Below, one piece after another: positions 11,191 through 60,003 of a stretch of 64,000 nt of DNA. Source of the stretch: Patescibacteria group bacterium (GTDB taxonomy: Bacteria > Patescibacteriota > Saccharimonadia > UBA4664 > SCTI01); contig SCTI01000001.1 in assembly GCA_004297735.1 (NCBI GenBank), forward strand, positions 190,435 to 254,434, read 5' to 3'. Each line of letters begins with the position of its first letter. Position 1 is the stretch's first letter. Position numbers and translations under genes: made by a program. A model generated the notes under the pieces. It did not search any database and was not told where the DNA came from. It worked only from the letters and a program-made list of their open reading frames with translations.

Positions 11191-11232
11191 TTAGGCACCT
11201 TTCTGTATGTGGTTATATTATCATCACTGAGT

Positions 11233-11255: not shown

Positions 11256-11311
11256 AGGTTGAACTATATAACGCTCATGCTTTACTATTAAAGCAATAAT
11301 GAGGTCATCGA

Positions 11312-12049
11312 ATGCCAAGGCTGCCGCAACCCGGTCAGGATAATGGAACATGGGGAGAGCTTTTAAACGAATATTTAAGTGTTGAGCTGGATTCAGCCGG
11401 CAATCTTAAGCTTCGTACCGATGGCACGCTTGACTCTAAAGCCAACGACAGCGAGGTGGTCCACCTGTCAGGCTCAGAGACCATTGCTGGGCTAAAGATA
11501 TTTTCAACCGTGCCGACCATTCCGGCTCCTTCAACCGGAACCGATGCCGCCAACAAAACCTACGTCGATAATACTGTTGCTTCAGGTACGCCGGATGCGA
11601 CCGGAAGTGTAAAGGGCAAGATTCAGCTAGCTGGCGACCTAACCGGTACAGCTGCTAGCCCAACCATTGCCAACGGTGCCGTTACCGCAGCTAAGGTTGC
11701 GGCCGATGTGGCCACGCAAGCCGAGCTGGACTCGGTTGCTCAAACTTTAACCGCCAACACCCAAACCACTAGTTATGTTTTGGTGGCAGGAGATGCCGGT
11801 AAGGTGATCGAGATGAACTCATCTTCGGCTACCACTGTAACGATCCCACTAAATTCTAGTGTGGCCTTTGCTACGGGTACCGTAATCGAGGTACTGCGTT
11901 TTGGCACTGGCACCGTTACGATTACCCCAACCGGCGGAGTTACCATTCGCTCACGGGCTAGCTTAACCGCAATTGCTAACCAGTACGGCTCGGTATCATT
12001 ACGTAAACGCGCTACCGATGAGTGGGTACTGGTTGGGGATCTTACCTAA
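11312..12049 (+). CDS. Tail-fibre-like/adhesin-like protein, N-terminal part
   Basis: 245 aa rich in Thr/Gly/Ala beta-strand repeats (TGTVTITPTGGVTI). Ends at TAA 12047-12049. The next ORF continues in the same frame. Confidence 0.5.
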   Translation: MPRLPQPGQDNGTWGELLNEYLSVELDSAGNLKLRTDGTLDSKANDSEVVHLSGSETIAGLKIFSTVPTIPAPSTGTDAANKTYVDNTVASGTPDATGSVKGKIQLAGDLTGTAASPTIANGAVTAAKVAADVATQAELDSVAQTLTANTQTTSYVLVAGDAGKVIEMNSSSATTVTIPLNSSVAFATGTVIEVLRFGTGTVTITPTGGVTIRSRASLTAIANQYGSVSLRKRATDEWVLVGDLT

Positions 12050-13297
12050 GTGGCGACCATAACGGCGAGCCGTTCGGCGACATCGCAGTACCAGTCTTGG
12101 TTCACCCCAAATGCTGGAGGGCGCTGGGGCGGTTGGCAGATAGCTTCTAACTTAGCCATGGGTCAAAATACCGCCGTGGGTGGATTGTCGTCACCATCAG
12201 CTCAATATGCTGGTTCGACTGGGGCCAGCCGCACCACGCGGAGGCGCTGTCGAGCAGCTTTTTCGTTTAGTCAGCTAAAGCTCGAGTTCACCAACAGCCC
12301 TTGCGACGTTGAGCCAACGACAGCGAGCGAACACGGCGACATCACCATAGCGGCTAGCGTCGAAACTGCTGGCGGCGCACTAACCCAAGTTACCTTTGAC
12401 GGTGGGTCGACCACCAAGGTTTTAACCAAAAATACCACCGTTTTAAGCGATGCGGCGTCTTTTACAGCGGCCGAAGGCGATATTTTTTGGGTGAGAACCT
12501 ACGTTAGCGCCGGAACCGGTCTGCGTTACCCGCTAAACATGTTAACCGATCAAACCAACGGAGAGGGGACGGTCAACAGTGTTAATCAGACCATGTCCGG
12601 AACGATTTCTAGCTCAAACGCCAAGAGCTTTACCGCTACAGCCGTGGTTGCGCCTCGGCCAGCCCCAGTAACCAACTTATTAATTGTGGGCGACAGTATT
12701 ACGGCTGGACGAACCGAAGCTACCGATCAAACTTTATCGGATCATCAACGAGGTTGGGCAGCCCGAGCCTTTGGTGGTATTTATCCATTTTATCGTCTAG
12801 CGATGGGTGGAGATCGAGCCAATTTAATTCCGACCAACTGGCCATCCCGCCAGACACTACCGGCAACGGGCGGGTTTAGCCATGCCATTGTTTTACTGGG
12901 GGTTAACGACATTCAAGATGCCGCTCAGACCGGAGCCAATGTGATATCTTCGCTTGATACTATTTACCAATGGCTACAGGATGCTGGCATCCCGCGTATT
13001 TATGCTGTGACCATACCGCCATTTAGCGTTACCGGCACTTACACTAGCGCTGGAGGGCAAACGGTTAACTCTACCTTTGATGGCTACCGCCAAACCGTTA
13101 ACACCTCGATTCGGGCGTTATCTAACAGTCGACTGTATGGCTATATCGATGCCGCGGCGGCGGTTGAGGATGGCAGCAACGCAGGTAAGTGGCGTTCGGA
13201 CGGCGGAGTAGCGTATTCCGATGATGGGACCCACCCCAATACGCTGGGTCATCAAACTATAGCAAACGCTATTACCACCAAAACCTTCGCGGTTTAA
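12050..13297 (+). CDS. SGNH/GDSL hydrolase-domain protein, in frame with the upstream ORF
   Basis: 415 aa. GDS block LLIVGDSITAG and C-terminal DGTHPNTLGH (SGNH catalytic Asp/His block). GTG start directly after the upstream TAA, same frame. Confidence 0.55.
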   Translation: MATITASRSATSQYQSWFTPNAGGRWGGWQIASNLAMGQNTAVGGLSSPSAQYAGSTGASRTTRRRCRAAFSFSQLKLEFTNSPCDVEPTTASEHGDITIAASVETAGGALTQVTFDGGSTTKVLTKNTTVLSDAASFTAAEGDIFWVRTYVSAGTGLRYPLNMLTDQTNGEGTVNSVNQTMSGTISSSNAKSFTATAVVAPRPAPVTNLLIVGDSITAGRTEATDQTLSDHQRGWAARAFGGIYPFYRLAMGGDRANLIPTNWPSRQTLPATGGFSHAIVLLGVNDIQDAAQTGANVISSLDTIYQWLQDAGIPRIYAVTIPPFSVTGTYTSAGGQTVNSTFDGYRQTVNTSIRALSNSRLYGYIDAAAAVEDGSNAGKWRSDGGVAYSDDGTHPNTLGHQTIANAITTKTFAV

Positions 13298-13346: not shown

Positions 13347-14204
13347 ATGGTTAAATGCGGTGAGGTTTTGGGCAAAGTAGGAGCTGTTTTTGGTTTTGGC
13401 GTAGTCATGGTCGTTGGTTCGGCGGTTTTGATTTATGGGCCAGGTGGCATACTGTCGCAAAAAACTGTTGTTAAAACCGGTCCCGTTCCGGTCACAGTCA
13501 ATCAGCAGAGCGACCCTACAGACTCAACCACGGAAAGCCCGAACCCAAGCACCGAACCCAGCCCGGACCAGGCCTATGAATGGGTCAACTCACAGGTAAA
13601 TCCCTACTCAACCTATTACGCTAGTTACCGCCGAAGCAGCAATGCTACTACTGCCACCGTCGTGACGACCACCTCGACGTCAGTAACCAACACCGATACA
13701 GAATCCGAGCCAACTCCGCCGCCGGCACCGGTCTATTACGATGTTACCCGCACCGGTGCCTACAAGTACACTCCGGCCGAGGTTGAGGCTGGTGTGACAG
13801 CGACGAACCCGTCTTACTTTACCCGTACCGGCAACAATTTTTACACCACCTTAAAGAGCGGCACTTACGGTGGTGGGTTTCCGGCGGCGCCAGGAGACTA
13901 CTTCTACTTAAATGAGCTGTACTACCAAATTAATATTAATAGTTCGTTAACCTATTTAAATATTGGAACTCATCTTAAATACAAGGATCAAGACATTAAC
14001 TTTTATGTTGATGGTAGTTTAGCCATTAAACTGGTGCTGGTTGAAGATTTAAGCAATCCAGGTGTTGATTTTTATGTAACCAAACAGTACAACTTGCCTC
14101 CTGAGTATTTATGGAACACCGGAACTTACGGCCAGGTTCAAGGCGGCCCGTACATTTTTGATCCGGTTGATATTGCACTACCGGTTAGCTGTTCTGGTTG
14201 CTAA
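13347..14204 (+). CDS. Hypothetical membrane-anchored Ser/Thr-rich protein
   Basis: 285 aa. N-terminal TM helix (VGAVFGFGVVMVVGSAVLIY), low-complexity T/S/P-rich linker, C-terminal CSGC. Confidence 0.4.
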   Translation: MVKCGEVLGKVGAVFGFGVVMVVGSAVLIYGPGGILSQKTVVKTGPVPVTVNQQSDPTDSTTESPNPSTEPSPDQAYEWVNSQVNPYSTYYASYRRSSNATTATVVTTTSTSVTNTDTESEPTPPPAPVYYDVTRTGAYKYTPAEVEAGVTATNPSYFTRTGNNFYTTLKSGTYGGGFPAAPGDYFYLNELYYQININSSLTYLNIGTHLKYKDQDINFYVDGSLAIKLVLVEDLSNPGVDFYVTKQYNLPPEYLWNTGTYGQVQGGPYIFDPVDIALPVSCSGC

Positions 14205-16598: not shown

Positions 16599-17360
16599 AT
16601 GAGTAACCAAAAAATAGCCTCCCTGATAAAACTAAATTGGACTGCAGCAGCACTGCATTTAGCGCAGGGCATAGCGATTGTGGCTTTAAGCCGCGACTTT
16701 ACTTTGCCAATCTCGGTTAGCTTTTTACAGTTTAACCCCGCCACGCAAAACCTTGAGCCAACCTCGACTCCATTGTTCGACTTATCGCTACCGTGGCTGG
16801 TGGCATTATTCTTGTTCCTGTCTTTCCTGGCACACTTAACCATTGTTACCGTTTATCGTCATCGATACGTGGCTGATTTGCAAAAGGGCATCAACAAAGC
16901 TCGCTGGATAGAGTACAGTCTGTCGGCTTCGGTAATGATTGTAGCTATCGGATTACTCGTCGGTATCTATGATATAGCCAGCTTAATCGCCCTGTTTGGG
17001 TTGATAGCAATCATGAATCTATGCGGCCTGATTATGGAAGTCCACAATCAGACAACCAAGAACACTAACTGGCTAAGCTACTGGGTAGGCTGCCTGGCGG
17101 GGATAATTCCCTGGGTGATGATTGCGATTTACCTCTGGGCCGGAGCCGACAACGGCAGCCAGGCGCCAACCTTTGTTTACTGGATATTTGTTTCCATTTT
17201 TGTATTCTTTAACTGTTTTGCAATTAATATGTTTCTGCAGTACAAAAAGATTGGGCCATGGGCTAACTATCTTTACGGCGAAAAAGTATACGTCATTTTA
17301 AGTCTTGTCGCCAAATCAGCTTTAGCTTGGCAGGTATTTGCCGGAACATTGCGACCCTAG
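16599..17360 (+). CDS. Heliorhodopsin
   Basis: 253 aa, 7 TM. Blocks highly similar to characterised heliorhodopsin 48C12 (from memory): RWIEYSLSASVMIV (counterion Glu in RW-EYS), GCLAGIIPW, YVILSLVAKSALAWQVFAGTL with the Schiff-base Lys in LVAKSALAWQ. Conserved His in TM1 (AALHLAQ) and TM2 (FLAHLTIV). Confidence 0.85.
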   Translation: MSNQKIASLIKLNWTAAALHLAQGIAIVALSRDFTLPISVSFLQFNPATQNLEPTSTPLFDLSLPWLVALFLFLSFLAHLTIVTVYRHRYVADLQKGINKARWIEYSLSASVMIVAIGLLVGIYDIASLIALFGLIAIMNLCGLIMEVHNQTTKNTNWLSYWVGCLAGIIPWVMIAIYLWAGADNGSQAPTFVYWIFVSIFVFFNCFAINMFLQYKKIGPWANYLYGEKVYVILSLVAKSALAWQVFAGTLRP

Positions 17361-47128: not shown

Positions 47129-48581
47129 ACCCTCCTTTAAATGGTGCCCTAGTCGCAAACTGGCAGTCGCCGGTTTAGCCGCTATAATTATTTTCTTTAT
47201 ATTTAACGTTTATTTAATGTTCACCAATCCTTACGGATGGGGGAGCATAGTACAGCAGCCCTACACCACCAAGGTTGAAAATGGGCAGATAACCTTTCAT
47301 CAAAACTTTACTATAAAAGTTTACGGCGGTCCCGTTGCCGATCTGCTTGGTTACTACAAATCTGGCTTACTTATCGTTCAAAACAGCCTGTTTGGCAGCC
47401 AGCCGGTTCCGGGTAGCTCGGCGGAGGAGATTACCAGCAGCATCCACTGGCTCCGCTTTGACCCAAGCAAGCCCTATCTGATCTCCGGTGACCAGTTCAG
47501 CGTCCTGTATGTCCGTAACCTCGGCGTGTTTTACAATCAACTACTTAACCCCAACATTGCGCTTAGTCAAGACGACTGGCAAAACAAGCAGCGCGTCTAC
47601 CTCCAGTCGGTCCTGTATGGTATTGATGGCTTGAGCGCGGCGCGCACGCCCAAAACCACCGTGGTACCGATTGGGCCCAGATCGGCGGCCCTAACCCAAG
47701 TGCACCCTGGCAGTTACGGCTCCGATAGCGTCTACGGCCTGCTTTACGGCCTAGACCAGCTCCAAAATGAAAAAACTAGCGCAGACGGGAAATATCACCA
47801 ACAGACTCGAGGCGCCGCCGAGCAAATCATACGAGAACGCCAGCCGCAGCTTCAACAAATAGTTAACGACTACTTAAATACGGTGCAAGATCCGCAAACC
47901 GGACTGGTAAAAAACAATCTGAAGCTGGCTAGCGCTCGCGACGGAGTAACCCGTAGCAGCAGCTTTTATGACAATGTGGTGATGTGGAAGACACTTGAAC
48001 TAGCCAATAAACTTGATATTCGTACCACTAATACTCAAGAGCTCACCAGCCTGCATCAACGCATTCTGAACACGTATTGGAGCCAGCAAACCGGCTGTTT
48101 TATTGATTCAATCGACAACCGCTTGAGCTACAGCTCCGACTGGCTGATAGCGCTTCCAATCGAGTTTCTGCTGCCAACCCAGGATAAAGACAGGCTCCAA
48201 AGCTGCGTCAGCTACATTCGCAAACATAAACTGGCTGAACCCTTCCCAATAAAATACAACAACGAGAGCAAACCCGAAGGGCCTTGGGCGGTGCGTACCT
48301 TTGTGCCGAACTACGGCGGAAATGCTATCTGGAGCTATTGGGGCGCCGAGTACATCACCCTGCTGGCTAACCTCAATAAAACCACTAACGATCCAAGCTA
48401 TCGCCAGGAAGCTGAACGCCACATTAACACCTATCACCAAAAAATGGTTGAATACCACGGCTTCCCAGAAACTTTTGATGCAAACGGTAACTTTTTACAA
48501 AACGCGGTTTATAAAAGCATCCGTTCCACCGGCTGGGTGGTGCAGCTAGAGTACGCTGAGTGGCTGTTGAGCCAACCCTAA
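47112..48581 (+). CDS. Hypothetical membrane-anchored protein (possibly six-hairpin glycosidase-like)
   Basis: 489 aa. N-terminal TM. No firm motif. C-terminal region with NAIWSYWG is weakly reminiscent of (alpha/alpha)6 glycosidases. Confidence 0.4.
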   Translation: MSQGRKPSFKWCPSRKLAVAGLAAIIIFFIFNVYLMFTNPYGWGSIVQQPYTTKVENGQITFHQNFTIKVYGGPVADLLGYYKSGLLIVQNSLFGSQPVPGSSAEEITSSIHWLRFDPSKPYLISGDQFSVLYVRNLGVFYNQLLNPNIALSQDDWQNKQRVYLQSVLYGIDGLSAARTPKTTVVPIGPRSAALTQVHPGSYGSDSVYGLLYGLDQLQNEKTSADGKYHQQTRGAAEQIIRERQPQLQQIVNDYLNTVQDPQTGLVKNNLKLASARDGVTRSSSFYDNVVMWKTLELANKLDIRTTNTQELTSLHQRILNTYWSQQTGCFIDSIDNRLSYSSDWLIALPIEFLLPTQDKDRLQSCVSYIRKHKLAEPFPIKYNNESKPEGPWAVRTFVPNYGGNAIWSYWGAEYITLLANLNKTTNDPSYRQEAERHINTYHQKMVEYHGFPETFDANGNFLQNAVYKSIRSTGWVVQLEYAEWLLSQP

Positions 48582-48589
48582 ACGTGCAG

Positions 48590-48628
48590 ACGCCCCGCTA
48601 GCTACATGCCGGCGGGGCGCTTTTATTC
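48590..48628. terminator. Bidirectional hairpin terminator, copy 1 of an identical 39-nt repeat
   Basis: ACGCCCCGCTAGCTACATGCCGGCGGGGCGCTTTTATTC: 8-bp GC stem CGCCCCGC/GCGGGGCG, then TTTTATT. An identical copy lies at 50766-50804. Confidence 0.65.
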
Positions 48629-49206: not shown

Positions 49207-49277
49207 TCAGTTGTACTGTCAAAAAGACTGTGTGATTTATACCATATATAAAAGCATATTCAAATAATGGCTGCTTC

Positions 49278-49310
49278 CCGGTTTTGGTCAGATCCGGAAA
49301 CTGATACTAC
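49278..49310. repeat. 33-nt element CCGGTTTTGGTCAGATCCGG(A/T)AACTGATA(C/G)T, copy 1 of 3
   Basis: Also at 52104-52136 and 53467-53499. Each copy sits 0-6 nt 3' of the stop codon of a minus-strand island gene. Confidence 0.7.
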
Positions 49311-50296: not shown

Positions 50297-50765
50297 TGCG
50301 CCTCCAATTGTAAAAGTATTATCGTGACGACCCGGCGGGGTCTGGAGAAAGACGACAACATGGGTTTACCGGGCCGTGCGCCCTCGCTGCGGCGCGCCCG
50401 AGTGGCGGTCACCGGCCTGCGGAGCAGACCAGCTGCTCTTCTGCCACGAGCGCTCACGCGCCGCGGATGAAGAACCGGCCACCTCATCGTGCCGCAGCCT
50501 GCGCTGGAGCTCCCGCGTACGAGAGCCTATAGACCACCTACACGCTACGGAATGGCTACCGCGTTGGCGGAGTGGCTACCGCTCGTTTGCGTCAGTTGGC
50601 CCAACCTCGTCGTTTGAACGACCAGGCACTGGTGTTAGGACGGTTGTCGACCTTACATCTCCAGACCCCACCTATAGGGTGTCACTACTTACCGAACACC
50701 TATCGGTAGCGTCATGATAGCAGGCCTGTGCATATGGAGGCAATATTAGTTACCTTAAAACTTCA
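50297..50765 (-). ncRNA. Candidate retron msr/msd non-coding RNA region (GC-rich 5' leader of the RT gene)
   Basis: 469 nt with no plausible ORF (all frames Arg-rich nonsense). About 64% GC. Multiple local palindromes (GGAGCTCC, GAGCAGctggtCTGCTC, CACCCTATAGGTGG). Confidence 0.3.
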
Positions 50766-50804
50766 ACGCCCCGCTAGCTACATGCCGGCGGGGCGCTTTT
50801 ATTC
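50766..50804. terminator. Bidirectional hairpin terminator, copy 2 of the identical 39-nt repeat
   Basis: Identical to 48590-48628. Separates gene 50799..51476 from the RT unit. Confidence 0.65.
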
Positions 50805-51476: not shown

Positions 51477-52103
51477 AGATTATTCCTCAATCTCGCTGTC
51501 AAAGAAGAAGGACGGCCGAAGCCGTCCCGTGTACACCTCCATACGGAGATGGCGCCGGCCTAAGGGTGCTCTCGGACACCCAGAGGCCTACTCAGTGTTT
51601 CTTTATCCCCCTGAGTTACCGGGGTTTATTTTCGGCTTACCGAGAGTTACCGTCCAGCAACACTACAATTAGATGCAGGAGGTGGATACCCCTAACAAAC
51701 TGACGCTTCCACACTACCCCTAGGAGGTAGCGCGTCAGGCTGACTGGTACTACCATCCACCTGTGAGGTCAGCTCTCCAACTTGCCGCTGATTTACGTCG
51801 CAGCGACTATCAGGTGCAGAGGTGGCTCGAGGCGTGGTCTCGTTAACCTTTCGAGCTTGGCTTATGCCTTGCCCTTGGCACGAGCAACATCGCTGTTGCC
51901 ACTGTTTGAGATACTATCATTTTATGTGTTTTTGTCAACATGCCAAAGAGTCTCGAGTGAGTCGATTTATTACCGATTATTCAAAGCACAAAATTGCCGA
52001 GCTATTTTCGCAGGCGGTGGATTTGCATAAAACTTAAACCAGTTTTAGTTGTGCAGTTTCGTCCTTTTGGACTCGTCAGAACACATACACATGTATTGAC
52101 TGC

Positions 52104-52136
52104 TCCGGTTTTGGTCAGATCCGGTAACTGATAGTG
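52104..52136. repeat. 33-nt element, copy 2
   Basis: CCGGTTTTGGTCAGATCCGGTAACTGATAGT. Lies 3 nt 3' of the stop of 52139..53386. Confidence 0.7.
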
Positions 52137-52138
52137 GT

Positions 52139-53386
52139 TTAGGCCCTAAGTGCCCCCGTGGCGCGATAGGCCTCGAGCCACCTCTCGTTATAGAACCAGT
52201 CAGGCACATATGCACTCTCGATTTCGCCCTCGCTAGAGAGCACCTGGTGGGCCCAGACGCACCGACCCTCGCTGCCGCGAACGCGACTTCCAAAGCCGCT
52301 GTTTACCCGTAGACCTGCCTTTTCGGCAACCACTTCGGGATACCGATAGGGACCGTCAAAGCCGCCGCTGACACTCAGGTAGAGGTCGTCCAGTTCGCAC
52401 ACAGCCAGGACCAATCGCTGGATCTCAGCAATCCCCTCAAGACTCAAGCAACGAGTCCGCGAGGCATGAACCGTGATCGAGGAGCCAGCGGCGTAAAACG
52501 GATGGTTGACGTTTGTCCAGCCCCTCAGAGACTGGTCGTCTTCATCGTCCCGCAACGACCCTTCTGGCGGCAGAACCGCCTGAACAGCCATACCGCGAAT
52601 CAGAGCGGAGGTGTGCCCATTGATCAGCCCAACTGAGATCTTATCTCGGCTCATGACCGGGTGATACCCGGGCACGATACTGAGATCAAGGCCACCACCT
52701 GGCTTAAACAGGCCGTGCCACAGCCTGAATGACCGCTCTGAGTCACCGATCTCAAAGGTGACCAGCTGCAACCAGTCGTAACTCCATCGCCCACTAAGCG
52801 AGTGGGTGATGCCGATCTCTTGGATCTTGGGATGGTCAAGTGCTACAAGTAGTGCCGCTTCAAGGCTATTGACCGCAGCGAACACCACTTCGATTTGAAG
52901 CTGTTCCAGGGCCTCAGCCAGCATTCCAACCGACATGCAGTTGAAGACCGGATTCGGAACGTATGTATTGAGTGTTCGCAGCGACAGCCAGTGCGAAGAG
53001 CGACCAATCCGAGACCGGTGTAGCGGGCCACATGTGTGGTAACGGCTCACCCAGTAGCGCTGGGTATGACTAGCGATCCGGCGCAACGCCCACAGGTGCT
53101 GCTGTCCGGTTGTGCCCGGAAGCATTATCACTGCGCTTACCTGGTAGAGGTGGTCGAGGAGCACCCGTGCAACAGGTGCGCCATCGCGATAAAGCTTGAC
53201 CTCAAGCGAGCGACAAAAGTAGCGCCACTCCAGATCATCCTCGGCGTACTCGAAAGCAAGCTGAGGGTTCTTCACTCCCATATAGGGCAGCGATGGGTTA
53301 CGACCGCGGCTGCGTTGCCACATGCCGTGCAGCAGGACGTACTCGGCGGAACCTGGTTCGTGTCCTTTCAAGATACTCTTTTTCAC
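52139..53386 (-). CDS. Hypothetical protein (island gene), C-terminal half weakly resembles the PNP/MTA-nucleosidase phosphorylase fold
   Basis: 415 aa. Segment VFAAVNSLEAALLVALDHPKIQEIGITHSLSG loosely resembles the glycine-rich nucleoside-phosphorylase family-1 core. The assignment is tentative. Confidence 0.4.
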   Translation of the reverse strand: MKKSILKGHEPGSAEYVLLHGMWQRSRGRNPSLPYMGVKNPQLAFEYAEDDLEWRYFCRSLEVKLYRDGAPVARVLLDHLYQVSAVIMLPGTTGQQHLWALRRIASHTQRYWVSRYHTCGPLHRSRIGRSSHWLSLRTLNTYVPNPVFNCMSVGMLAEALEQLQIEVVFAAVNSLEAALLVALDHPKIQEIGITHSLSGRWSYDWLQLVTFEIGDSERSFRLWHGLFKPGGGLDLSIVPGYHPVMSRDKISVGLINGHTSALIRGMAVQAVLPPEGSLRDDEDDQSLRGWTNVNHPFYAAGSSITVHASRTRCLSLEGIAEIQRLVLAVCELDDLYLSVSGGFDGPYRYPEVVAEKAGLRVNSGFGSRVRGSEGRCVWAHQVLSSEGEIESAYVPDWFYNERWLEAYRATGALRA

Positions 53387-53466
53387 TTCTAATCCTTATG
53401 ACGAGATGGACAAAGAATGACTTATTATACAATTTATTATAATTAAATTCAAATAATTCAGCTTCA

Positions 53467-53499
53467 CCGGTTTTGGTCAGATCCGGTAACTGATAGTGC
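53467..53499. repeat. 33-nt element, copy 3
   Basis: CCGGTTTTGGTCAGATCCGGTAACTGATAGT. Lies 5 nt 3' of the stop of 53504..53917. Confidence 0.7.
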
Positions 53500-57221: not shown

Positions 57222-58135
57222 TTTTTGGGTTAAATGTATCTTTGGTCTGGCTGGTAGCCGGCTTGGCTTTGCTGCCCGGTAACAGTCTAGCTACAATATC
57301 AAAGTTTGCCGCCAGCGTAACCAAACCAACCGCTCAAACTCAAGTTCAAACTCTATCCGATCAAGCCATGCCGGTGGCCCGCAACGGCTTAAAGCCACCG
57401 GCCTTAACCGCCACGGCAGTATACGCCGTTGATGTCGAAACCGGCACCGTACTATTAAGCAAGAACGCCGACCAACCGCGACCAATTGCCTCAATCACCA
57501 AGCTGGCAACCGTAATCACTTATCTGAGTCGCCACAACCTAAATGACACCATTACGGTGCCGCCGTTGCCGGCCTACCAAGCCGGGGCCGAGCTGATTGG
57601 GCTTAAACCGGGCGAACGTTATAAAACCCAAGACATTGTTGCCGCTGCCCTGATCCCATCAGCCAATGATGCCGCCGACACCCTTGCCCTTAGCGACGCC
57701 GGTAGCCTGGAAGAGTTTAGTAAAAGCATGCAGGAGCAGCTGGCCAACTGGGGGATTGAAGGCGCTCAGTTTAGCAACCCCACCGGTTTGACCACCGGCA
57801 CCAGCCTTAACCAAGTATCGGCGGCTGGGGTGGCTAATATGGGCCAGCTGTTGGTGCGCAATCCACAACTCCGGCAGCTGGTTCAAACTCAAACCCAAAC
57901 GATTTCCAGCCTGGAGGGCCGGCCGCTTAGCCTTGCCACCACCAATCAACTTTTGAAAAATTCCCAATTTAATGGTATAAAGACTGGATACACACCCGAA
58001 GCCGGTCAGTGTTTTGTAAGCCTTGCAACGGTCAACGGACATCAAATCGTCACCGTGGTGCTGGGCTCACAAGATCGCTTTGGCGAAACCGAGCAATTAG
58101 TAAATTGGATTAAACGGAGCTATGAATGGCTGTAA
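57218..58135 (+). CDS. D-alanyl-D-alanine carboxypeptidase (S11, PBP5-like)
   Basis: 305 aa. SxxK (ASITKLAT), SxN (IPSANDA) and KTG (GIKTGYT) motifs. Confidence 0.75.
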   Translation: MIFGLNVSLVWLVAGLALLPGNSLATISKFAASVTKPTAQTQVQTLSDQAMPVARNGLKPPALTATAVYAVDVETGTVLLSKNADQPRPIASITKLATVITYLSRHNLNDTITVPPLPAYQAGAELIGLKPGERYKTQDIVAAALIPSANDAADTLALSDAGSLEEFSKSMQEQLANWGIEGAQFSNPTGLTTGTSLNQVSAAGVANMGQLLVRNPQLRQLVQTQTQTISSLEGRPLSLATTNQLLKNSQFNGIKTGYTPEAGQCFVSLATVNGHQIVTVVLGSQDRFGETEQLVNWIKRSYEWL

Positions 58136-59430
58136 CCCCCCTTGTGGCAATTGTTGGTCGACCAAACGTCGGCAAGTCCAGCCTGTTTAATCGCCTGATT
58201 GGGCGCCGGCAGGCAATTACGCATGATGTGGCCGGTACCACTCGCGATGCCAACTATGGCGTGGTCACCTGGAACGGCAAGCACCTCATGCTGGCCGACA
58301 CGGCCGGGCTTCACCCCACCAAAGACGAGCTAGAGCTACGGGCGCAGGACCAGATTACAGAAGTAGCCGAGGTAGCTCAGTTAATCTTGGTGGTAATCGA
58401 CGCCACCACTATGATCACCAACGAAGACCGCCAGGCTGCTCGCCAAGCGCTTAAGACCGGTAAGCCGGTGGTGCTGGCCCTAAATAAGCTGGATGGTGGC
58501 AACCAAAAACCGGTCGACGAGTTTGTACGACTTGGCATTAAGCATCAGGTTGAGGTCTCGGCTATACATGGTCGTGGTACCGGCGACCTGCTAGATGTAC
58601 TGGTTGAGGCGATTGGCGGCACCAATGAGCCGGCCGACGACAATCAGATCCGATTAGCCCTGCTGGGTCGACCAAACGTCGGCAAGTCCAGCCTGCTCAA
58701 CAGCATGGTTGGTAAGCAGCAAGCGATCGTGTCGGCCACCGCCGGTACCACTCGTGATGTCGGTCGAGCCAGTGTACGCTACCACAATCAAGATATTCAA
58801 ATACTCGATACCGCTGGATTGCGCCGACGCGGCAAGATCGAAGGTGGGGTAGAAAAGTACAGCGCCCTGCGCACTCTGGCCGCAATCACTCAAGCCGATG
58901 TCTGCGTTTTGGTTATGGATGCTACCGAGCTAAGCGTAGCCGGCGACCAAAACATTGCCGGCCAGGTACTAGAGGCCGGAAAGGGGCTAATAATTGTGGT
59001 AAATAAGTGGGACGCGGTCGACAAAGAAACCGGCACCCAAGAGGCGCTTACCCGTAAGCTTATGCACGACTTTAGCTTTGCGCACTGGGCGCCGCTGGTT
59101 TATACCTCGGCCACCGAAGGACTAAACGTGGCTAAGCTGTTTGAGCTAACCCGTCAAATCGTTGAGCGAAGAACCACCACCATCCCCACCACTAAGCTTA
59201 ACAAGGTGCTTGGTCAGCTAACCAGCAAGCAGCCGCCAGCAGGGCTTAAAAACCGTCAGCCAAAAATTAAATACGCCGCCCAAACCGACACCAATCCGCC
59301 AACCTTCACTATATTTAGCAGCTACGCCGATTTAATCCACTTTTCGTATAAGCGCTATCTAGAAAATGGCTTACGCGAGGCCTATGACTTTACCGGGACT
59401 CCAATTAAACTAGAGTTTAGGAGTAAGTAA
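58126..59430 (+). CDS. der: Ribosome-biogenesis GTPase Der (EngA), tandem GTPase domains
   Basis: 434 aa. Two G-domains, each with GRPNVGKSSL, DTAG, NKxD. C-terminal KH-like domain. Confidence 0.9.
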   Translation: MAVTPLVAIVGRPNVGKSSLFNRLIGRRQAITHDVAGTTRDANYGVVTWNGKHLMLADTAGLHPTKDELELRAQDQITEVAEVAQLILVVIDATTMITNEDRQAARQALKTGKPVVLALNKLDGGNQKPVDEFVRLGIKHQVEVSAIHGRGTGDLLDVLVEAIGGTNEPADDNQIRLALLGRPNVGKSSLLNSMVGKQQAIVSATAGTTRDVGRASVRYHNQDIQILDTAGLRRRGKIEGGVEKYSALRTLAAITQADVCVLVMDATELSVAGDQNIAGQVLEAGKGLIIVVNKWDAVDKETGTQEALTRKLMHDFSFAHWAPLVYTSATEGLNVAKLFELTRQIVERRTTTIPTTKLNKVLGQLTSKQPPAGLKNRQPKIKYAAQTDTNPPTFTIFSSYADLIHFSYKRYLENGLREAYDFTGTPIKLEFRSK

Positions 59431-60003
59431 ATGAAGTTGATCGTCGGTCTTGGTAATGTTGGTCGCCAGTACCATGCCACCCGCCATAATCTAGGCTTTG
59501 ATGTGGTTGAGATGCTGGGGATTACCTTTGGCCATCAGCCAAGTGAGTTTAAAAAGCACAGCAAGGCCACCGCGGAAGTGCTAGACCTTAAACAGTCTCA
59601 TGATTGTATTTTGGTTAAACCTACAACCATGATGAACCTGAGCGGACAAGCGGTAGGTGATTTAGTGCGTTTTTATAAGATTAACCCGGCCGATGTTTGG
59701 CTGATTTATGATGATGTTGATTTGCAGTTTGGGCAAATGCGCATTCGAGTTGGTGGTGGTAGCGCCGGTCACAACGGCGTAAAGTCGGTGATTGAGCATA
59801 TTGGCGATGGTTTTTGGCGCGTTCGACTTGGTGTTGCTAACCAGTTTTTACCTACAACGCCAACCGACGCCTTTGTGCTTAGCCCCTTTATGGCAGACGA
59901 AGCAGCCAAGATACCAACCATTCTTAGACAGACCTCCGATTATCTTGAAGATGCCTTGCTCGATGGGCAGATCGTGGATCACACTCAAAATTTGATTGCC
60001 TGA
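59431..60003 (+). CDS. pth: Peptidyl-tRNA hydrolase
   Basis: 190 aa. MKLIVGLGNVG...YHATRHNLGF, GHNG motif. TGA stop. Confidence 0.9.
   Translation: MKLIVGLGNVGRQYHATRHNLGFDVVEMLGITFGHQPSEFKKHSKATAEVLDLKQSHDCILVKPTTMMNLSGQAVGDLVRFYKINPADVWLIYDDVDLQFGQMRIRVGGGSAGHNGVKSVIEHIGDGFWRVRLGVANQFLPTTPTDAFVLSPFMADEAAKIPTILRQTSDYLEDALLDGQIVDHTQNLIA

What the first reader, a model, noticed from the sequence alone, without database searches (positions are those of the whole stretch)
11312..13297. Tail-fibre-like protein and SGNH esterase are one reading frame split by a single TAA
ORFs 11312-12049 and 12050-13297 are in the same frame. They are separated only by TAA at 12047-12049, with GTG immediately after. 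Beta-rich fibre-like repeats fused to a C-terminal SGNH/GDSL esterase is the architecture of phage tailspikes or receptor-binding proteins that deacetylate surface polysaccharides, and of some bacterial adhesins. Possible explanations are a recent nonsense mutation (pseudogene), a sequencing error, programmed read-through, or two coupled genes.
Basis: seen in the sequence. Interest (0 to 1): 0.5.

Follow-up and report, generated by a model that had tools for sequence, protein, structure and literature searches.

The report
Two coupled phage-type genes, not one
The "split" reading frame is really two separate, intact genes, a phage-type fibre protein and a sugar-deacetylating esterase, that sit back to back so that one is probably translated straight after the other, which is an ordinary bacterial arrangement.

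Summary
ORF1 (11312-12049) ends in TAA at 12047-12049. ORF2 (12050-13297) starts at the next base with GTG, so it is in the same frame.

Seven orthologous contigs (58-85% identical esterase) all read ...EWVLVGDL(T/A), then a stop (TAA, once TAG), then ATG-GCN.

ORF1's C-terminal domain ends at this residue in all but a few of about 230 homologous proteins and loci examined, including Gordonia phage minor tail proteins. There the next gene usually overlaps by 4 or 1 bases in another frame.

ORF2 is complete on its own: a conserved N-terminal peptide, a CBM-like beta-sandwich and an SGNH domain with all catalytic blocks. Most relatives are stand-alone proteins of about 335-470 aa.

No ORF1::ORF2 fusion was found among 120 listed ORF1 homologues or 164 ORF2 relatives. 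Both ORFs are under purifying selection. TAA is this genome's commonest stop, and no RNA structure or suppressor tRNA was found.

Best reading: a bicistronic, probably translationally coupled, phage-derived fibre plus carbohydrate-esterase module. It lies in a Patescibacteria (Saccharibacteria-like) chromosome outside any visible prophage. It is ordinary as a recoding candidate. The wider family of fibre-plus-partner modules in Saccharibacteria is mildly interesting.

The parts
11192..11221 (+). Promoter-like site upstream of ORF1 (weak, consensus match only)
   Evidence: TAGGCA-16/18 nt-TATATT/TATTAT, 9 of 12 matches. No promoter-like or terminator-like site separates ORF1 from ORF2.
11301..11304 (+). 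Shine-Dalgarno-like GAGG, 7 nt upstream of the ORF1 ATG
   Evidence: Read directly from the sequence.
11312..12049 (+). ORF1: phage-type fibre/spike protein, 245 aa, complete (stop included)
   Evidence: It is 100% identical to NCBI EPO04_01250. The family has 675 homologues, and none of the 120 listed carries an SGNH domain.
11312..11416 (+). ORF1 N-terminal module (aa 1-35, MPRLPQPGQDNGTWGELLNEYL...; helix 12-25)
   Evidence: The motif is present in 71 of 120 homologues. It is found in 17 of 80 genome loci, all from the Saccharibacteria-type set, and in only 2 of 88 viral loci. Model pLDDT is 71-82.
11591..11761 (+). ORF1 variable stalk with DUF5907 repeat (aa 94-150)
   Evidence: PF19264, E 6.7e-13. 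The middle region is hypervariable across the family and collagen-like in some members. The monomer model has low confidence here.
11747..12046 (+). ORF1 C-terminal beta-sandwich domain (aa 146-245), XD1/T4-gp9-like fold. It is the native C-terminus of the family.
12035..12039 (+). SD-like GGGGA inside the Gly242-Asp243 codons, 10 nt upstream of the ORF2 start (GGAGA in 7 of 7 orthologues)
   Evidence: The assignment as a ribosome-binding site is inferred, not shown.
12047..12049 (+). ORF1 stop codon TAA, conserved as a stop in all orthologues (TAA in 6, TAG in 1)
   Evidence: TAA is the commonest stop codon in the window (31 of 61 long ORFs).
12050..12052 (+). ORF2 start codon GTG (ATG in 7 of 7 orthologues)
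   Evidence: Residues 1-36 downstream are conserved at the protein level, so this is the true start rather than NCBI's Met37.
12050..13297 (+). ORF2: two-domain carbohydrate-esterase-like protein, 415 aa, complete (stop included)
12050..12190 (+). ORF2 conserved N-terminal peptide (aa 1-47; ...WFTPN..RWGGWQ...), conserved in sequence but modelled with low confidence
   Evidence: invariant W17, F18, R25, W26, G28, W29, Q30. One search gives pLDDT below 50. A similar N-terminal motif of hydrophobic residues followed by Arg occurs in the partner genes of other loci and phages.
12227..12664 (+). ORF2 CBM-like beta-sandwich (aa 60-205)
   Evidence: strands, pLDDT 74-95. One search gives full-length alignments to the two-domain esterases 9kr0, 7toh, 2wao and 4k3u.
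12677..13294 (+). ORF2 SGNH/GDSL hydrolase domain (aa 210-415). Catalytic Ser216 is at 12695-12697, Asp392 at 13223-13225 and His395 at 13232-13234. Oxyanion residues are Gly254 and Asn286.
   Evidence: PF13472. One search shows G214, D215, S216, N286 and D287 invariant, and G254, D392 and H395 at least 90% conserved. Codons were checked.

Best explanation
ORF1 and ORF2 are two separate, intact genes of one bicistronic unit.

ORF1 is a short phage-type fibre or spike protein with three parts. It has a conserved N-terminal module of about 35 aa, a variable stalk, and a C-terminal beta-sandwich of about 100 aa with the XD1/T4-gp9 fold. That fold serves as a glycan-binding domain in StcE and CpaA.

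ORF2 is a self-contained carbohydrate-esterase-like enzyme. It has a conserved N-terminal peptide of about 47 aa, a CBM-like beta-sandwich, and an SGNH domain with Ser216, Asp392 and His395 intact.

The ORF2 start codon follows the ORF1 stop codon with zero spacing. A ribosome that terminates at TAA can therefore most likely re-initiate at the adjacent GTG (translational coupling), possibly helped by the SD-like GGGGA/GGAGA in the Gly-Asp codons. This would give the two proteins in a fixed ratio.

The pair is of phage origin and probably works as phage adsorption modules do: the fibre binds a cell-surface glycan and the esterase removes O-acyl groups from it.

What is shown: there are two genes; the stop and the start are both conserved; the domain architectures; purifying selection; phage relatives.

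What is inferred: the coupling mechanism; the substrate; any physical complex; the biological role in a chromosome with no visible prophage.
For: - **Conserved junction.** In L001, L002, L003, L006, L007, L008 and L009 the fibre gene ends ...EWVLVGDL(T/A), then a stop, then ATG-GCN. The stop is TAA in six and TAG in L006, a stop-to-stop change.
- **ORF1 ends natively here.** About 64 of 120 homologues end within 3-4 residues of the WVLxG motif, 20 of 20 aligned members end at the same column, and nearly all of 80 genome loci end 0-4 residues after the alignment. All 80 viral loci align to within a few residues of ORF1's end. PHROG matches run to the profile ends. In Gordonia phage BiteSize the domain is the C-terminus of gp27.
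- **Other frames elsewhere.** In 24 Saccharibacteria-type loci the next gene usually overlaps by 4 bases (16 loci) or 1 base (3 loci) in another frame. Two further loci abut with TAA-ATG.
- **ORF2 is complete alone.** All 8 close homologues with full query coverage are 415-424 aa. Most of the top 150 family representatives are 335-470 aa with the match starting near their N-terminus. phrog_8480 aligns positions 59-448 to residues 53-412. The model aligns over its full length to the two-domain esterases 9kr0 and 7toh. RayTheFireFly gp32 stands alone, with the neighbouring upstream gene on the opposite strand.
- **No fusion found.** None of the 120 listed ORF1 homologues carries PF13472. None of 149 ORF2-family representatives has an ORF1-type domain by profile search. 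BLASTP of ORF1 against the two longest first-search ORF2 hits, P0011 and P0015, found nothing.
- **Selection.** dN is 0.1-0.38 with dS saturated, and omega is 0.05-0.19 where it can be computed, for both ORFs.
- **Genetic code and signals.** TAA, TAG and TGA are all used as stops. There is no suppressor tRNA in the window. There is no junction RNA structure: z = +1.21, alifold -8 kcal/mol, negligible covariation.
- **Spacing.** Tight spacing supports coupling in general (review PMC12548453). A second zero-spacing pair exists in the window.
Against: - Coupling itself is not demonstrated. The SD-like element lies 10-11 nt from the start, which is long. According to PMC12548453, 0-nt spacing is less enriched than -4 or -1.
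- Neither protein has a signal peptide or a hydrophobic segment, and no phage structural genes lie nearby. How the proteins would reach a cell surface in this organism is unexplained.
- The substrate is unknown.
- A low level of read-through cannot be excluded from sequence alone.
Confidence: 0.9

Rival explanations
1. A recent nonsense mutation split a single fibre-esterase gene, making it a pseudogene.
For: Only the raw observation supports this: same frame, a single TAA between the ORFs. Single-chain fibre-esterase proteins do exist in distant relatives.
Against: The stop is present in all 7 orthologous contigs, down to 58% protein identity, and once as TAG. Synonymous sites are saturated between these orthologues, so the stop is ancient. 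Both ORFs are under purifying selection. ORF1's domain ends here throughout its family, phages included. No ORF1::ORF2 fusion was found.
Confidence: 0.01
2. A sequencing or assembly error created a false stop at 12047-12049.
For: None beyond the fact that this is a metagenome-assembled genome.
Against: The same stop sits at the same codon in 7 independently assembled contigs from different samples. The NCBI proteins EPO04_01250 and EPO04_01255 are annotated as separate genes.
Confidence: 0.01
3. Programmed stop-codon read-through yields, besides ORF1, a minor ORF1-ORF2 fusion of about 71 kDa that tethers the esterase to the fibre.
For: The in-frame arrangement is conserved in the 7 orthologues and in 2 other Saccharibacteria loci, L024 and L031. 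Tethering an esterase to a fibre is functionally plausible, and single-chain versions exist in other lineages.
Against: - In-frame is the arithmetic consequence of zero spacing.
- A start codon is conserved directly after the stop.
- Most related modules use -4 or -1 overlaps, where read-through is impossible.
- The phage orthologue in L004 (51% identity) has a -4 overlap with an unrelated upstream gene.
- The stop is TAA followed by G or A, with no conserved downstream structure and no suppressor tRNA found.
Confidence: 0.04
4. There are two genes, but ORF2 is initiated independently from its own ribosome-binding site (GGGGA/GGAGA in the Gly-Asp codons) rather than by termination-reinitiation.
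For: GGAGA is kept in 7 of 7 orthologues and in many related loci, although Gly has four codons. About a third of long ORFs in the window have an SD-like motif upstream.
Against: The spacing of 10-11 nt is longer than the 3-10 nt seen for GGAG upstream of other ORFs in the window. The Gly-Asp residues are themselves conserved, which partly explains the nucleotides. Zero or negative spacing is conserved across the whole family, which suggests selection for coupling.
Confidence: 0.25
5. The module is a leftover of a degraded prophage (a moron or remnant) with no current role for the cell.
For: Both proteins are of phage type. A minimal ORF1-like gene sits next to a head-protein gene in the real phage contigs L102 and L103. 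The esterase orthologue P0008 lies in a phage contig with terminase and portal genes. Neither protein has an export signal.
Against: Both ORFs are under purifying selection across deep divergence. The same two-gene unit recurs in different non-phage chromosomal contexts. Related fibre-plus-partner modules are frequent in Saccharibacteria genomes among cellular genes.
Confidence: 0.3

Closest known systems
Gordonia phage minor tail proteins (for example BiteSize gp27 and RayTheFireFly gp32; phrog_8780 and phrog_8480)
   Same: ORF1's C-terminal domain is 52-57% identical to the C-terminal approximately 100 aa of minor tail proteins in 222 Gordonia phages, and it is C-terminal there too. ORF2 is 28-32% identical over about 72% of its length to stand-alone 'minor tail protein / lysophospholipase L1-like esterase' genes in 27 Gordonia phages.
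   Different: In the phage regions examined the two are not adjacent and not in the same phage (RayTheFireFly and BiteSize). The phage fibre proteins are longer (584 aa for BiteSize gp27) and, at the sensitivity used, lack the ORF1 N-terminal module. Here the genes are not in a phage genome. The predominance of Gordonia partly reflects how heavily phages of that host have been sequenced, which is my own knowledge.
Two-domain SGNH carbohydrate esterases (polyvinyl-alcohol esterase 9kr0/9kr1, acetyl-xylan esterase PbeAcXE 7tog/7toh, CE2 2wao, peptidoglycan O-acetylesterase Ape1 4k3u)
   Same: The architecture is the same: an N-terminal CBM-like beta-sandwich followed by an SGNH catalytic domain. 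Foldseek gives E 4e-23 to 6e-20 over more than 420 columns. The profile hits 9kr0 at 1.8e-14 and 7tog at 2.7e-6.
   Different: Sequence identity is only 20-22%. ORF2 has an extra conserved N-terminal peptide of about 47 aa and no signal peptide. The substrate is unknown.
Translationally coupled gene pairs with overlapping or abutting stop and start codons (review PMC12548453)
   Same: The genes are co-oriented, the spacing is 0 nt, the tight spacing is conserved in orthologues, and there is an SD-like element within the upstream coding sequence.
   Different: The commonest natural spacings are -4 and -1. This lineage uses 0, which happens to keep the frame. Coupling has not been measured here.
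Branched phage receptor-binding complexes (CBA120 TSP1-4; G7C gp66 plus the esterase tailspike gp63.1)
   Same: There is a fibre or anchor protein plus a separately encoded enzymatic partner, and in G7C that partner is an SGNH esterase (my own knowledge; G7C gp66 is discussed in PMC8825819). ORF1's C-terminal domain shares a fold with a domain of CBA120 TSP4-N and with T4 baseplate proteins.
   Different: The shared fold corresponds to XD1/gp9, which PMC8825819 describes as a spacer. It is not XD2 or XD3, which are the docking domains. No complex between ORF1 and ORF2 has been shown or modelled. There is no tail or baseplate here.
Single-chain tail fibres with an embedded esterase of the same family (L014 1201-aa protein; P0139, P0147, P0255)
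   Same: They carry the same esterase module, phrog_8480 (E 1e-44 to 1e-85), joined to tail-fibre segments.
   Different: They are distant (about 27% identity for L014), have different fibre domains, and contain no ORF1-type N-terminal or C-terminal domain.

Membership tests
SGNH/GDSL hydrolase superfamily (ORF2) | Block I GDS motif with the nucleophilic Ser | tested here: met
   G214-D215-S216 are invariant in a 12-sequence alignment. The codons are at 12689-12697.
SGNH/GDSL hydrolase superfamily (ORF2) | Block II Gly and block III GxND (oxyanion hole) | tested here: met
   G254 is at least 90% conserved. G284, N286 and D287 are conserved or invariant.
SGNH/GDSL hydrolase superfamily (ORF2) | Block V DxxH (catalytic Asp and His) | tested here: met
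   D392-G-T-H395 are at least 90% conserved, and invariant among orthologues.
SGNH/GDSL hydrolase superfamily (ORF2) | Pfam model above the gathering threshold, and the alpha/beta/alpha fold | tested here: met
   PF13472 scores 55.3 bits against 32.9. The model and the Foldseek hits agree.
SGNH/GDSL hydrolase superfamily (ORF2) | Esterase activity and substrate | not testable with these tools
   Needs an enzyme assay, for example pNP-acetate or acetylated polysaccharides, with an S216A control.
Phage minor-tail/fibre C-terminal domain family (phrog_8780 and relatives; ORF1) | Significant profile match covering the C-terminal domain, located at the protein's C-terminus | tested here: met
   phrog_8780 gives E 3.5e-32, with residues 119-244 aligned to profile positions 625-755 of 755. 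Identity to Gordonia phage proteins is 52-57%.
Phage minor-tail/fibre C-terminal domain family (phrog_8780 and relatives; ORF1) | Encoded within a phage or prophage structural gene block | tested here: not met
   The neighbours are an AI-2E transporter, DUF3800, a methyltransferase, a pilin-like gene, a PhnB-like gene, DUF2200, an MFS transporter, DUF6325 and a heliorhodopsin. There is no att-like repeat of the nearby tRNA-Gln.
Phage minor-tail/fibre C-terminal domain family (phrog_8780 and relatives; ORF1) | Part of a virion | not testable with these tools
   Needs virion or cell-surface proteomics.
Programmed stop-codon read-through | The downstream ORF lacks its own conserved initiation codon | tested here: not met
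   ATG (7 of 7 orthologues) or GTG (the window) directly follows the stop.
Programmed stop-codon read-through | Conserved stimulatory context or RNA structure 3' of the stop | tested here: not met
   The fold z-score is +1.21. The alifold energy is -8 kcal/mol with a covariation term of -0.46.
Programmed stop-codon read-through | Relatives with a sense codon or a fused ORF at the same position | tested here: not met
   None was found among 120 listed ORF1 homologues or 164 ORF2 relatives.
Programmed stop-codon read-through | Detection of the extended product | not testable with these tools
   Needs proteomics or tagged expression.
Pseudogene by nonsense mutation | Intact single-ORF orthologues, and relaxed selection downstream of the stop | tested here: not met
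   All orthologues have the stop. Omega is 0.05-0.19 and dS is saturated for both ORFs.
Translationally coupled gene pair (termination-reinitiation) | Co-oriented genes with very short or negative spacing that is conserved in orthologues | tested here: met
   Spacing is 0 nt in 8 of 8 loci of this lineage. Spacing is -4, -1 or 0 in 21 of 24 related Saccharibacteria-type modules.
Translationally coupled gene pair (termination-reinitiation) | Translation of the downstream gene depends on translation of the upstream gene | not testable with these tools
   Needs reporter or mutational experiments.
Branched receptor-binding-protein complex (CBA120 TSP / G7C gp66-gp63.1 type) | T4 gp10-like XD2/XD3 docking domain in the anchor protein | tested here: inconclusive
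   ORF1's C-terminal domain matches TSP4-N, the T4 baseplate, CpaA and StcE. That is the set PMC8825819 lists for XD1, not for XD2 or XD3. Which sub-domain is aligned was not resolved.
Branched receptor-binding-protein complex (CBA120 TSP / G7C gp66-gp63.1 type) | Physical attachment of the enzymatic partner to the anchor | not tested

The most novel reading that the evidence does not exclude
Saccharibacteria may carry many stand-alone chromosomal 'fibre plus interchangeable partner' modules of phage origin. Each has an ORF1-type fibre gene tightly coupled to a variable downstream gene: an SGNH esterase here, and LamG lectin-like, beta-helix-like, glycosidase-like or small proteins elsewhere. 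The partner begins with a similar N-terminal peptide of hydrophobic residues followed by Arg.

The most novel reading not excluded is that these epibiotic bacteria have domesticated phage receptor-binding modules to recognise or modify the envelope of their actinobacterial hosts. In that reading the partner's N-terminal peptide docks onto the fibre's C-terminal domain, so that the heads can be swapped.
Probability: 0.12. Interest if true: 0.7.

Novelty: new member of a known kind. Interest (0 to 1): 0.22.

Why it matters
For the question that was asked, it removes a false recoding or pseudogene candidate. An in-frame stop followed at once by a start codon is simply a zero-spacing coupled gene pair, and the annotation should keep two genes. 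The annotated start of ORF2 should move from Met37 to the GTG at 12050.

More broadly, the locus belongs to a recurrent set of phage-type fibre-plus-enzyme modules in Saccharibacteria chromosomes. How these epibionts recognise their hosts is still largely unknown; type IV pili are the main candidates (PMC11623550, PMC11880426). If the modules are expressed by the cell, they would be candidates for that role.

Tried and rejected
- **Possible paralogue.** The other 415-aa ORF at 52139-53386(-) is unrelated to ORF2.
- **Paralogues in the window.** tblastn found none for ORF1, ORF2 or ORF3.
- **ORF3 as part of the cassette.** ORF3 (13347-14204) has no homologue in any orthologous locus. Only 11693-13281 is shared with L001, at 72% nucleotide identity.
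- **Esterase in species-representative genomes.** The first attempt failed because the alignment was too divergent. The second found 88 pattern matches but no true relative. The esterase is therefore rare in GTDB representatives.
- **Genomic island at tRNA-Gln (7311-7385).** No repeat of the tRNA of 13 nt or more occurs elsewhere in the window. The cassette's GC content (0.51-0.55) does not stand out from its surroundings.
- **DGR-like or other repeats.** None touches the cassette.
- **RNA structure at the junction.** None.
- **NCBIfam.** No meaningful hit for ORF1, ORF2, ORF3 or the L001 fusion protein.
- **Pfam on eight downstream partner proteins.** Only one hit, Laminin_G_3 in L040. The beta-helix, LamG and glycosidase labels for the other partners are my reading of the sequences and were not tested.
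- **dN/dS.** dS is saturated for most pairs, so omega could be computed for only a minority.
- **Docking-platform idea for ORF1's C-terminal domain.** This is weakened, because the fold corresponds to XD1 (a spacer or glycan-binding fold) rather than XD2 or XD3.
- **Literature.** The searches found no paper describing phage-fibre-like modules in Saccharibacteria.
Full report
**1. The observation**

The sequence is as described. ORF1 runs from ATG 11312 to TAA 12047-12049 (245 aa). ORF2 starts with GTG at 12050 and ends at 13297 (415 aa). Both are in the same frame.

ORF1 carries a DUF5907 repeat and matches phage minor-tail and tail-fibre PHROGs. ORF2 matches the GDSL/SGNH Pfam models above their thresholds.

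'Same frame' is an arithmetic consequence of a start codon directly following a stop. In this window 2 of 43 co-oriented neighbouring ORF pairs have exactly zero spacing and 5 overlap by 4 bases. The geometry is therefore not unusual for this genome.

**2. Source**

ORF1 and ORF2 are identical to NCBI proteins EPO04_01250 and EPO04_01255 of a 'Patescibacteria group bacterium' on a 273-kb contig. The closest full-length relatives of ORF1 are in Saccharibacteria/Saccharimonadales genomes. The window uses TAA (31), TAG (19) and TGA (11) as stops in its long ORFs, so TAA is not reassigned.

**3. Orthologues decide the question**

ORF2's close homologues (51-85% identity, full coverage) are all 415-424 aa. 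I fetched the contigs that encode seven of them.

In L001, L002, L003, L006, L007, L008 and L009 the upstream gene is an ORF1 homologue. The junction reads ...EWVLVGDL(T/A), then a stop, then ATG-GCN with zero spacing. The stop is TAA in six loci and TAG in L006. The start is ATG in all seven and GTG in the window.

Synonymous sites between these loci are saturated, while dN is 0.1-0.38. Omega is 0.05-0.19 where it can be computed, for both ORFs. The stop is therefore ancient and maintained, and both genes are under purifying selection.

In a 69%-GC phage contig with terminase and P22-type portal genes (L004), a 51%-identical esterase overlaps an unrelated 100-aa upstream gene by 4 bases, in a different frame.

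**4. ORF1 is complete**

Its PHROG matches run to the last positions of the profiles, for example phrog_8780 positions 625-755 of 755.

- Among the 120 best of 675 homologues, about 64 end 3-4 residues after the WVLxG motif. None has an SGNH domain and none exceeds 429 aa.
- All 20 aligned members end at the same column.
- In nearly all of 80 genome loci the ORF ends within 0-4 residues of the end of the alignment. All 80 viral loci align to within a few residues of ORF1's end.
- In Gordonia phage BiteSize the domain is the C-terminus of minor tail protein gp27, at 57% identity.

The AlphaFold model gives a confident beta-sandwich for residues 146-245 (pLDDT above 90). The helix at residues 12-25 has moderate confidence and the stalk has low confidence.

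**5. ORF2 is complete**

Residues 1-36, upstream of the Met37 start chosen by NCBI, are conserved in all orthologues (W17, F18, R25, W26, G28, W29, Q30). The true start is therefore the GTG at 12050.

The model has three parts: a low-confidence but conserved N-terminal peptide (1-47), a beta-sandwich (60-205) and an SGNH domain (210-415). It aligns over its full length with two-domain carbohydrate esterases: the PVA esterase 9kr0, the acetyl-xylan esterase 7toh, CE2 2wao and the peptidoglycan O-acetylesterase 4k3u. All SGNH blocks are present: GDS216, G254, GxN286D and D392xxH395.

An exhaustive profile search found 2,835 family clusters. Most of the best 150 are stand-alone proteins of 335-470 aa.

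A minority carry N-terminal extensions. Those examined contain other tail-fibre segments, endolysin-type repeats or a second esterase copy. L014 encodes a 1201-aa tail fibre with the esterase embedded in it. A profile of the ORF1 family hits none of the 149 representatives.

It is not the ancestral state of this locus, and it never involves ORF1.

**6. Read-through**

Nothing supports it.

- A start codon is conserved directly after the stop.
- The stop is TAA followed by G or A.
- There is no conserved RNA structure (z = +1.21, negligible covariation).
- No suppressor tRNA is in the window.
- In 24 related Saccharibacteria-type modules the partner gene usually overlaps by 4 bases (16 loci) or 1 base (3 loci) in another frame.

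A trace of read-through cannot be excluded without protein data.

**7. Mechanism**

The most likely mechanism is translational coupling. There is zero spacing, no promoter-like or terminator-like signal between the genes, and an SD-like GGGGA in the Gly242-Asp243 codons, which is GGAGA in all orthologues. That element lies 10-11 nt from the start, which is rather long.

The review PMC12548453 reports that coupling is efficient at short spacings, and that -4 and -1 are the commonest. Coupling is inferred here, not shown.

**8. What the pair is**

Both proteins are of phage type. Their closest cultured relatives are Gordonia phage minor tail proteins. A minimal 134-135 aa ORF1-like gene, consisting of the N-terminal module joined directly to the C-terminal domain, follows the head-protein gene in two real phage contigs.

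The window shows no prophage, however. The neighbours are transporters, a methyltransferase, a pilin-like gene, DUF2200 and a heliorhodopsin. Only 11693-13281 is shared with the closest relative, whose flanks differ. The other orthologous loci also sit next to cellular genes such as tRNA synthetases, TsaD and Band_7.

In other Saccharibacteria genomes, ORF1-type genes are tightly coupled to varied partners. One is a Pfam LamG domain protein. The others look beta-helix-like, glycosidase-like or small by eye. The partner N-termini share a motif of hydrophobic residues followed by Arg, which is also seen in phage L102 and in BiteSize gp28.

Neither ORF1 nor ORF2 has an export signal. A cell-surface role in the bacterium is therefore unexplained. 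A prophage remnant or a phage-related role remains a serious alternative.

**9. Verdict**

These are two intact, conserved, probably translationally coupled genes of phage origin. They are not a split gene, a sequencing error or a recoding site. As a recoding candidate the finding is ordinary. The recurrent fibre-plus-partner modules in Saccharibacteria are a modest lead worth noting.

Noticed in passing
window 12050-12160: NCBI annotates ORF2 (EPO04_01255) from Met37, giving 379 aa. Residues 1-36 are conserved in every orthologue, so the start should be the GTG at 12050.
   Followed up: yes
L001 1081-2829: In the closest relative, about 1.6 kb upstream of its own fibre-esterase pair, a 582-aa protein fuses the ORF1-type N-terminal module (MPRLPQPGGDVGNWGDILNEFL, 61% identity over 33 aa) to a different SGNH domain with a CE2_N-like insert. 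This is a natural single-chain fibre-head::esterase.
   Followed up: partly
L014 4342-7947: A viral contig encodes a 1201-aa tail fibre with a tail-protein N-terminal anchor (1-126), the same esterase family embedded at 523-885 (phrog_8480, E 1.6e-57) and a tail-fibre C-terminal region.
   Followed up: partly
L017-L076 (Saccharibacteria-type loci), L102 3447-, L011 6294-: Genes directly downstream of ORF1-type fibre genes start with a similar N-terminal peptide, for example MAIRTRRRS, MAAVHHIARRG, VIGVKTVRR, MSRINVRRRG and VIGAAFRRRKK. Their remaining domains differ. This may be a docking or assembly peptide.
   Followed up: partly
L041 3276-4481 and 4538-5719: Two tandem paralogous partner genes (401 and 393 aa, highly similar) follow one ORF1-type fibre gene in a Saccharibacteria genome.
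   Followed up: no
L017, L018, L021, L023, L048: These loci carry two copies of the ORF1 N-terminal module within about 6 kb, so fibre-type genes cluster in some Saccharibacteria-type genomes.
   Followed up: no
window 16599-17360: A heliorhodopsin gene (PF18761, E 1.8e-98) lies about 3.3 kb downstream of the cassette.
   Followed up: no
window 48575-48628 / 50752-50804; 49237-49306 / 53425-53495; 52094-52136 / 53467-53498: Short repeats of 32-72 nt at 83-100% identity are scattered over about 5 kb. They are unrelated to the finding.
   Followed up: no
window 58126-59430 / 59431-60003: This is a second gene pair with exactly zero spacing (TAA then ATG, same frame). It shows that the arrangement recurs in this genome.
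   Followed up: partly
window 9358-9726: A small pilin-like protein with a prokaryotic N-terminal methylation motif (PF07963) lies about 1.6 kb upstream. Type IV pili are the proposed host-attachment organelles of Saccharibacteria.
   Followed up: no
P0048, P0078 (ORF1 homologues): Some family members replace the DUF5907 stalk with collagen-like Gly-X-Y repeats (PF01391) between the same N-terminal and C-terminal modules.
   Followed up: no
window 13347-14204: ORF3 has an N-terminal transmembrane segment, a Ser/Thr/Pro-rich linker and a C-terminal domain ending in CSGC. It has no family hit and no homologue in the orthologous loci.
   Followed up: partly
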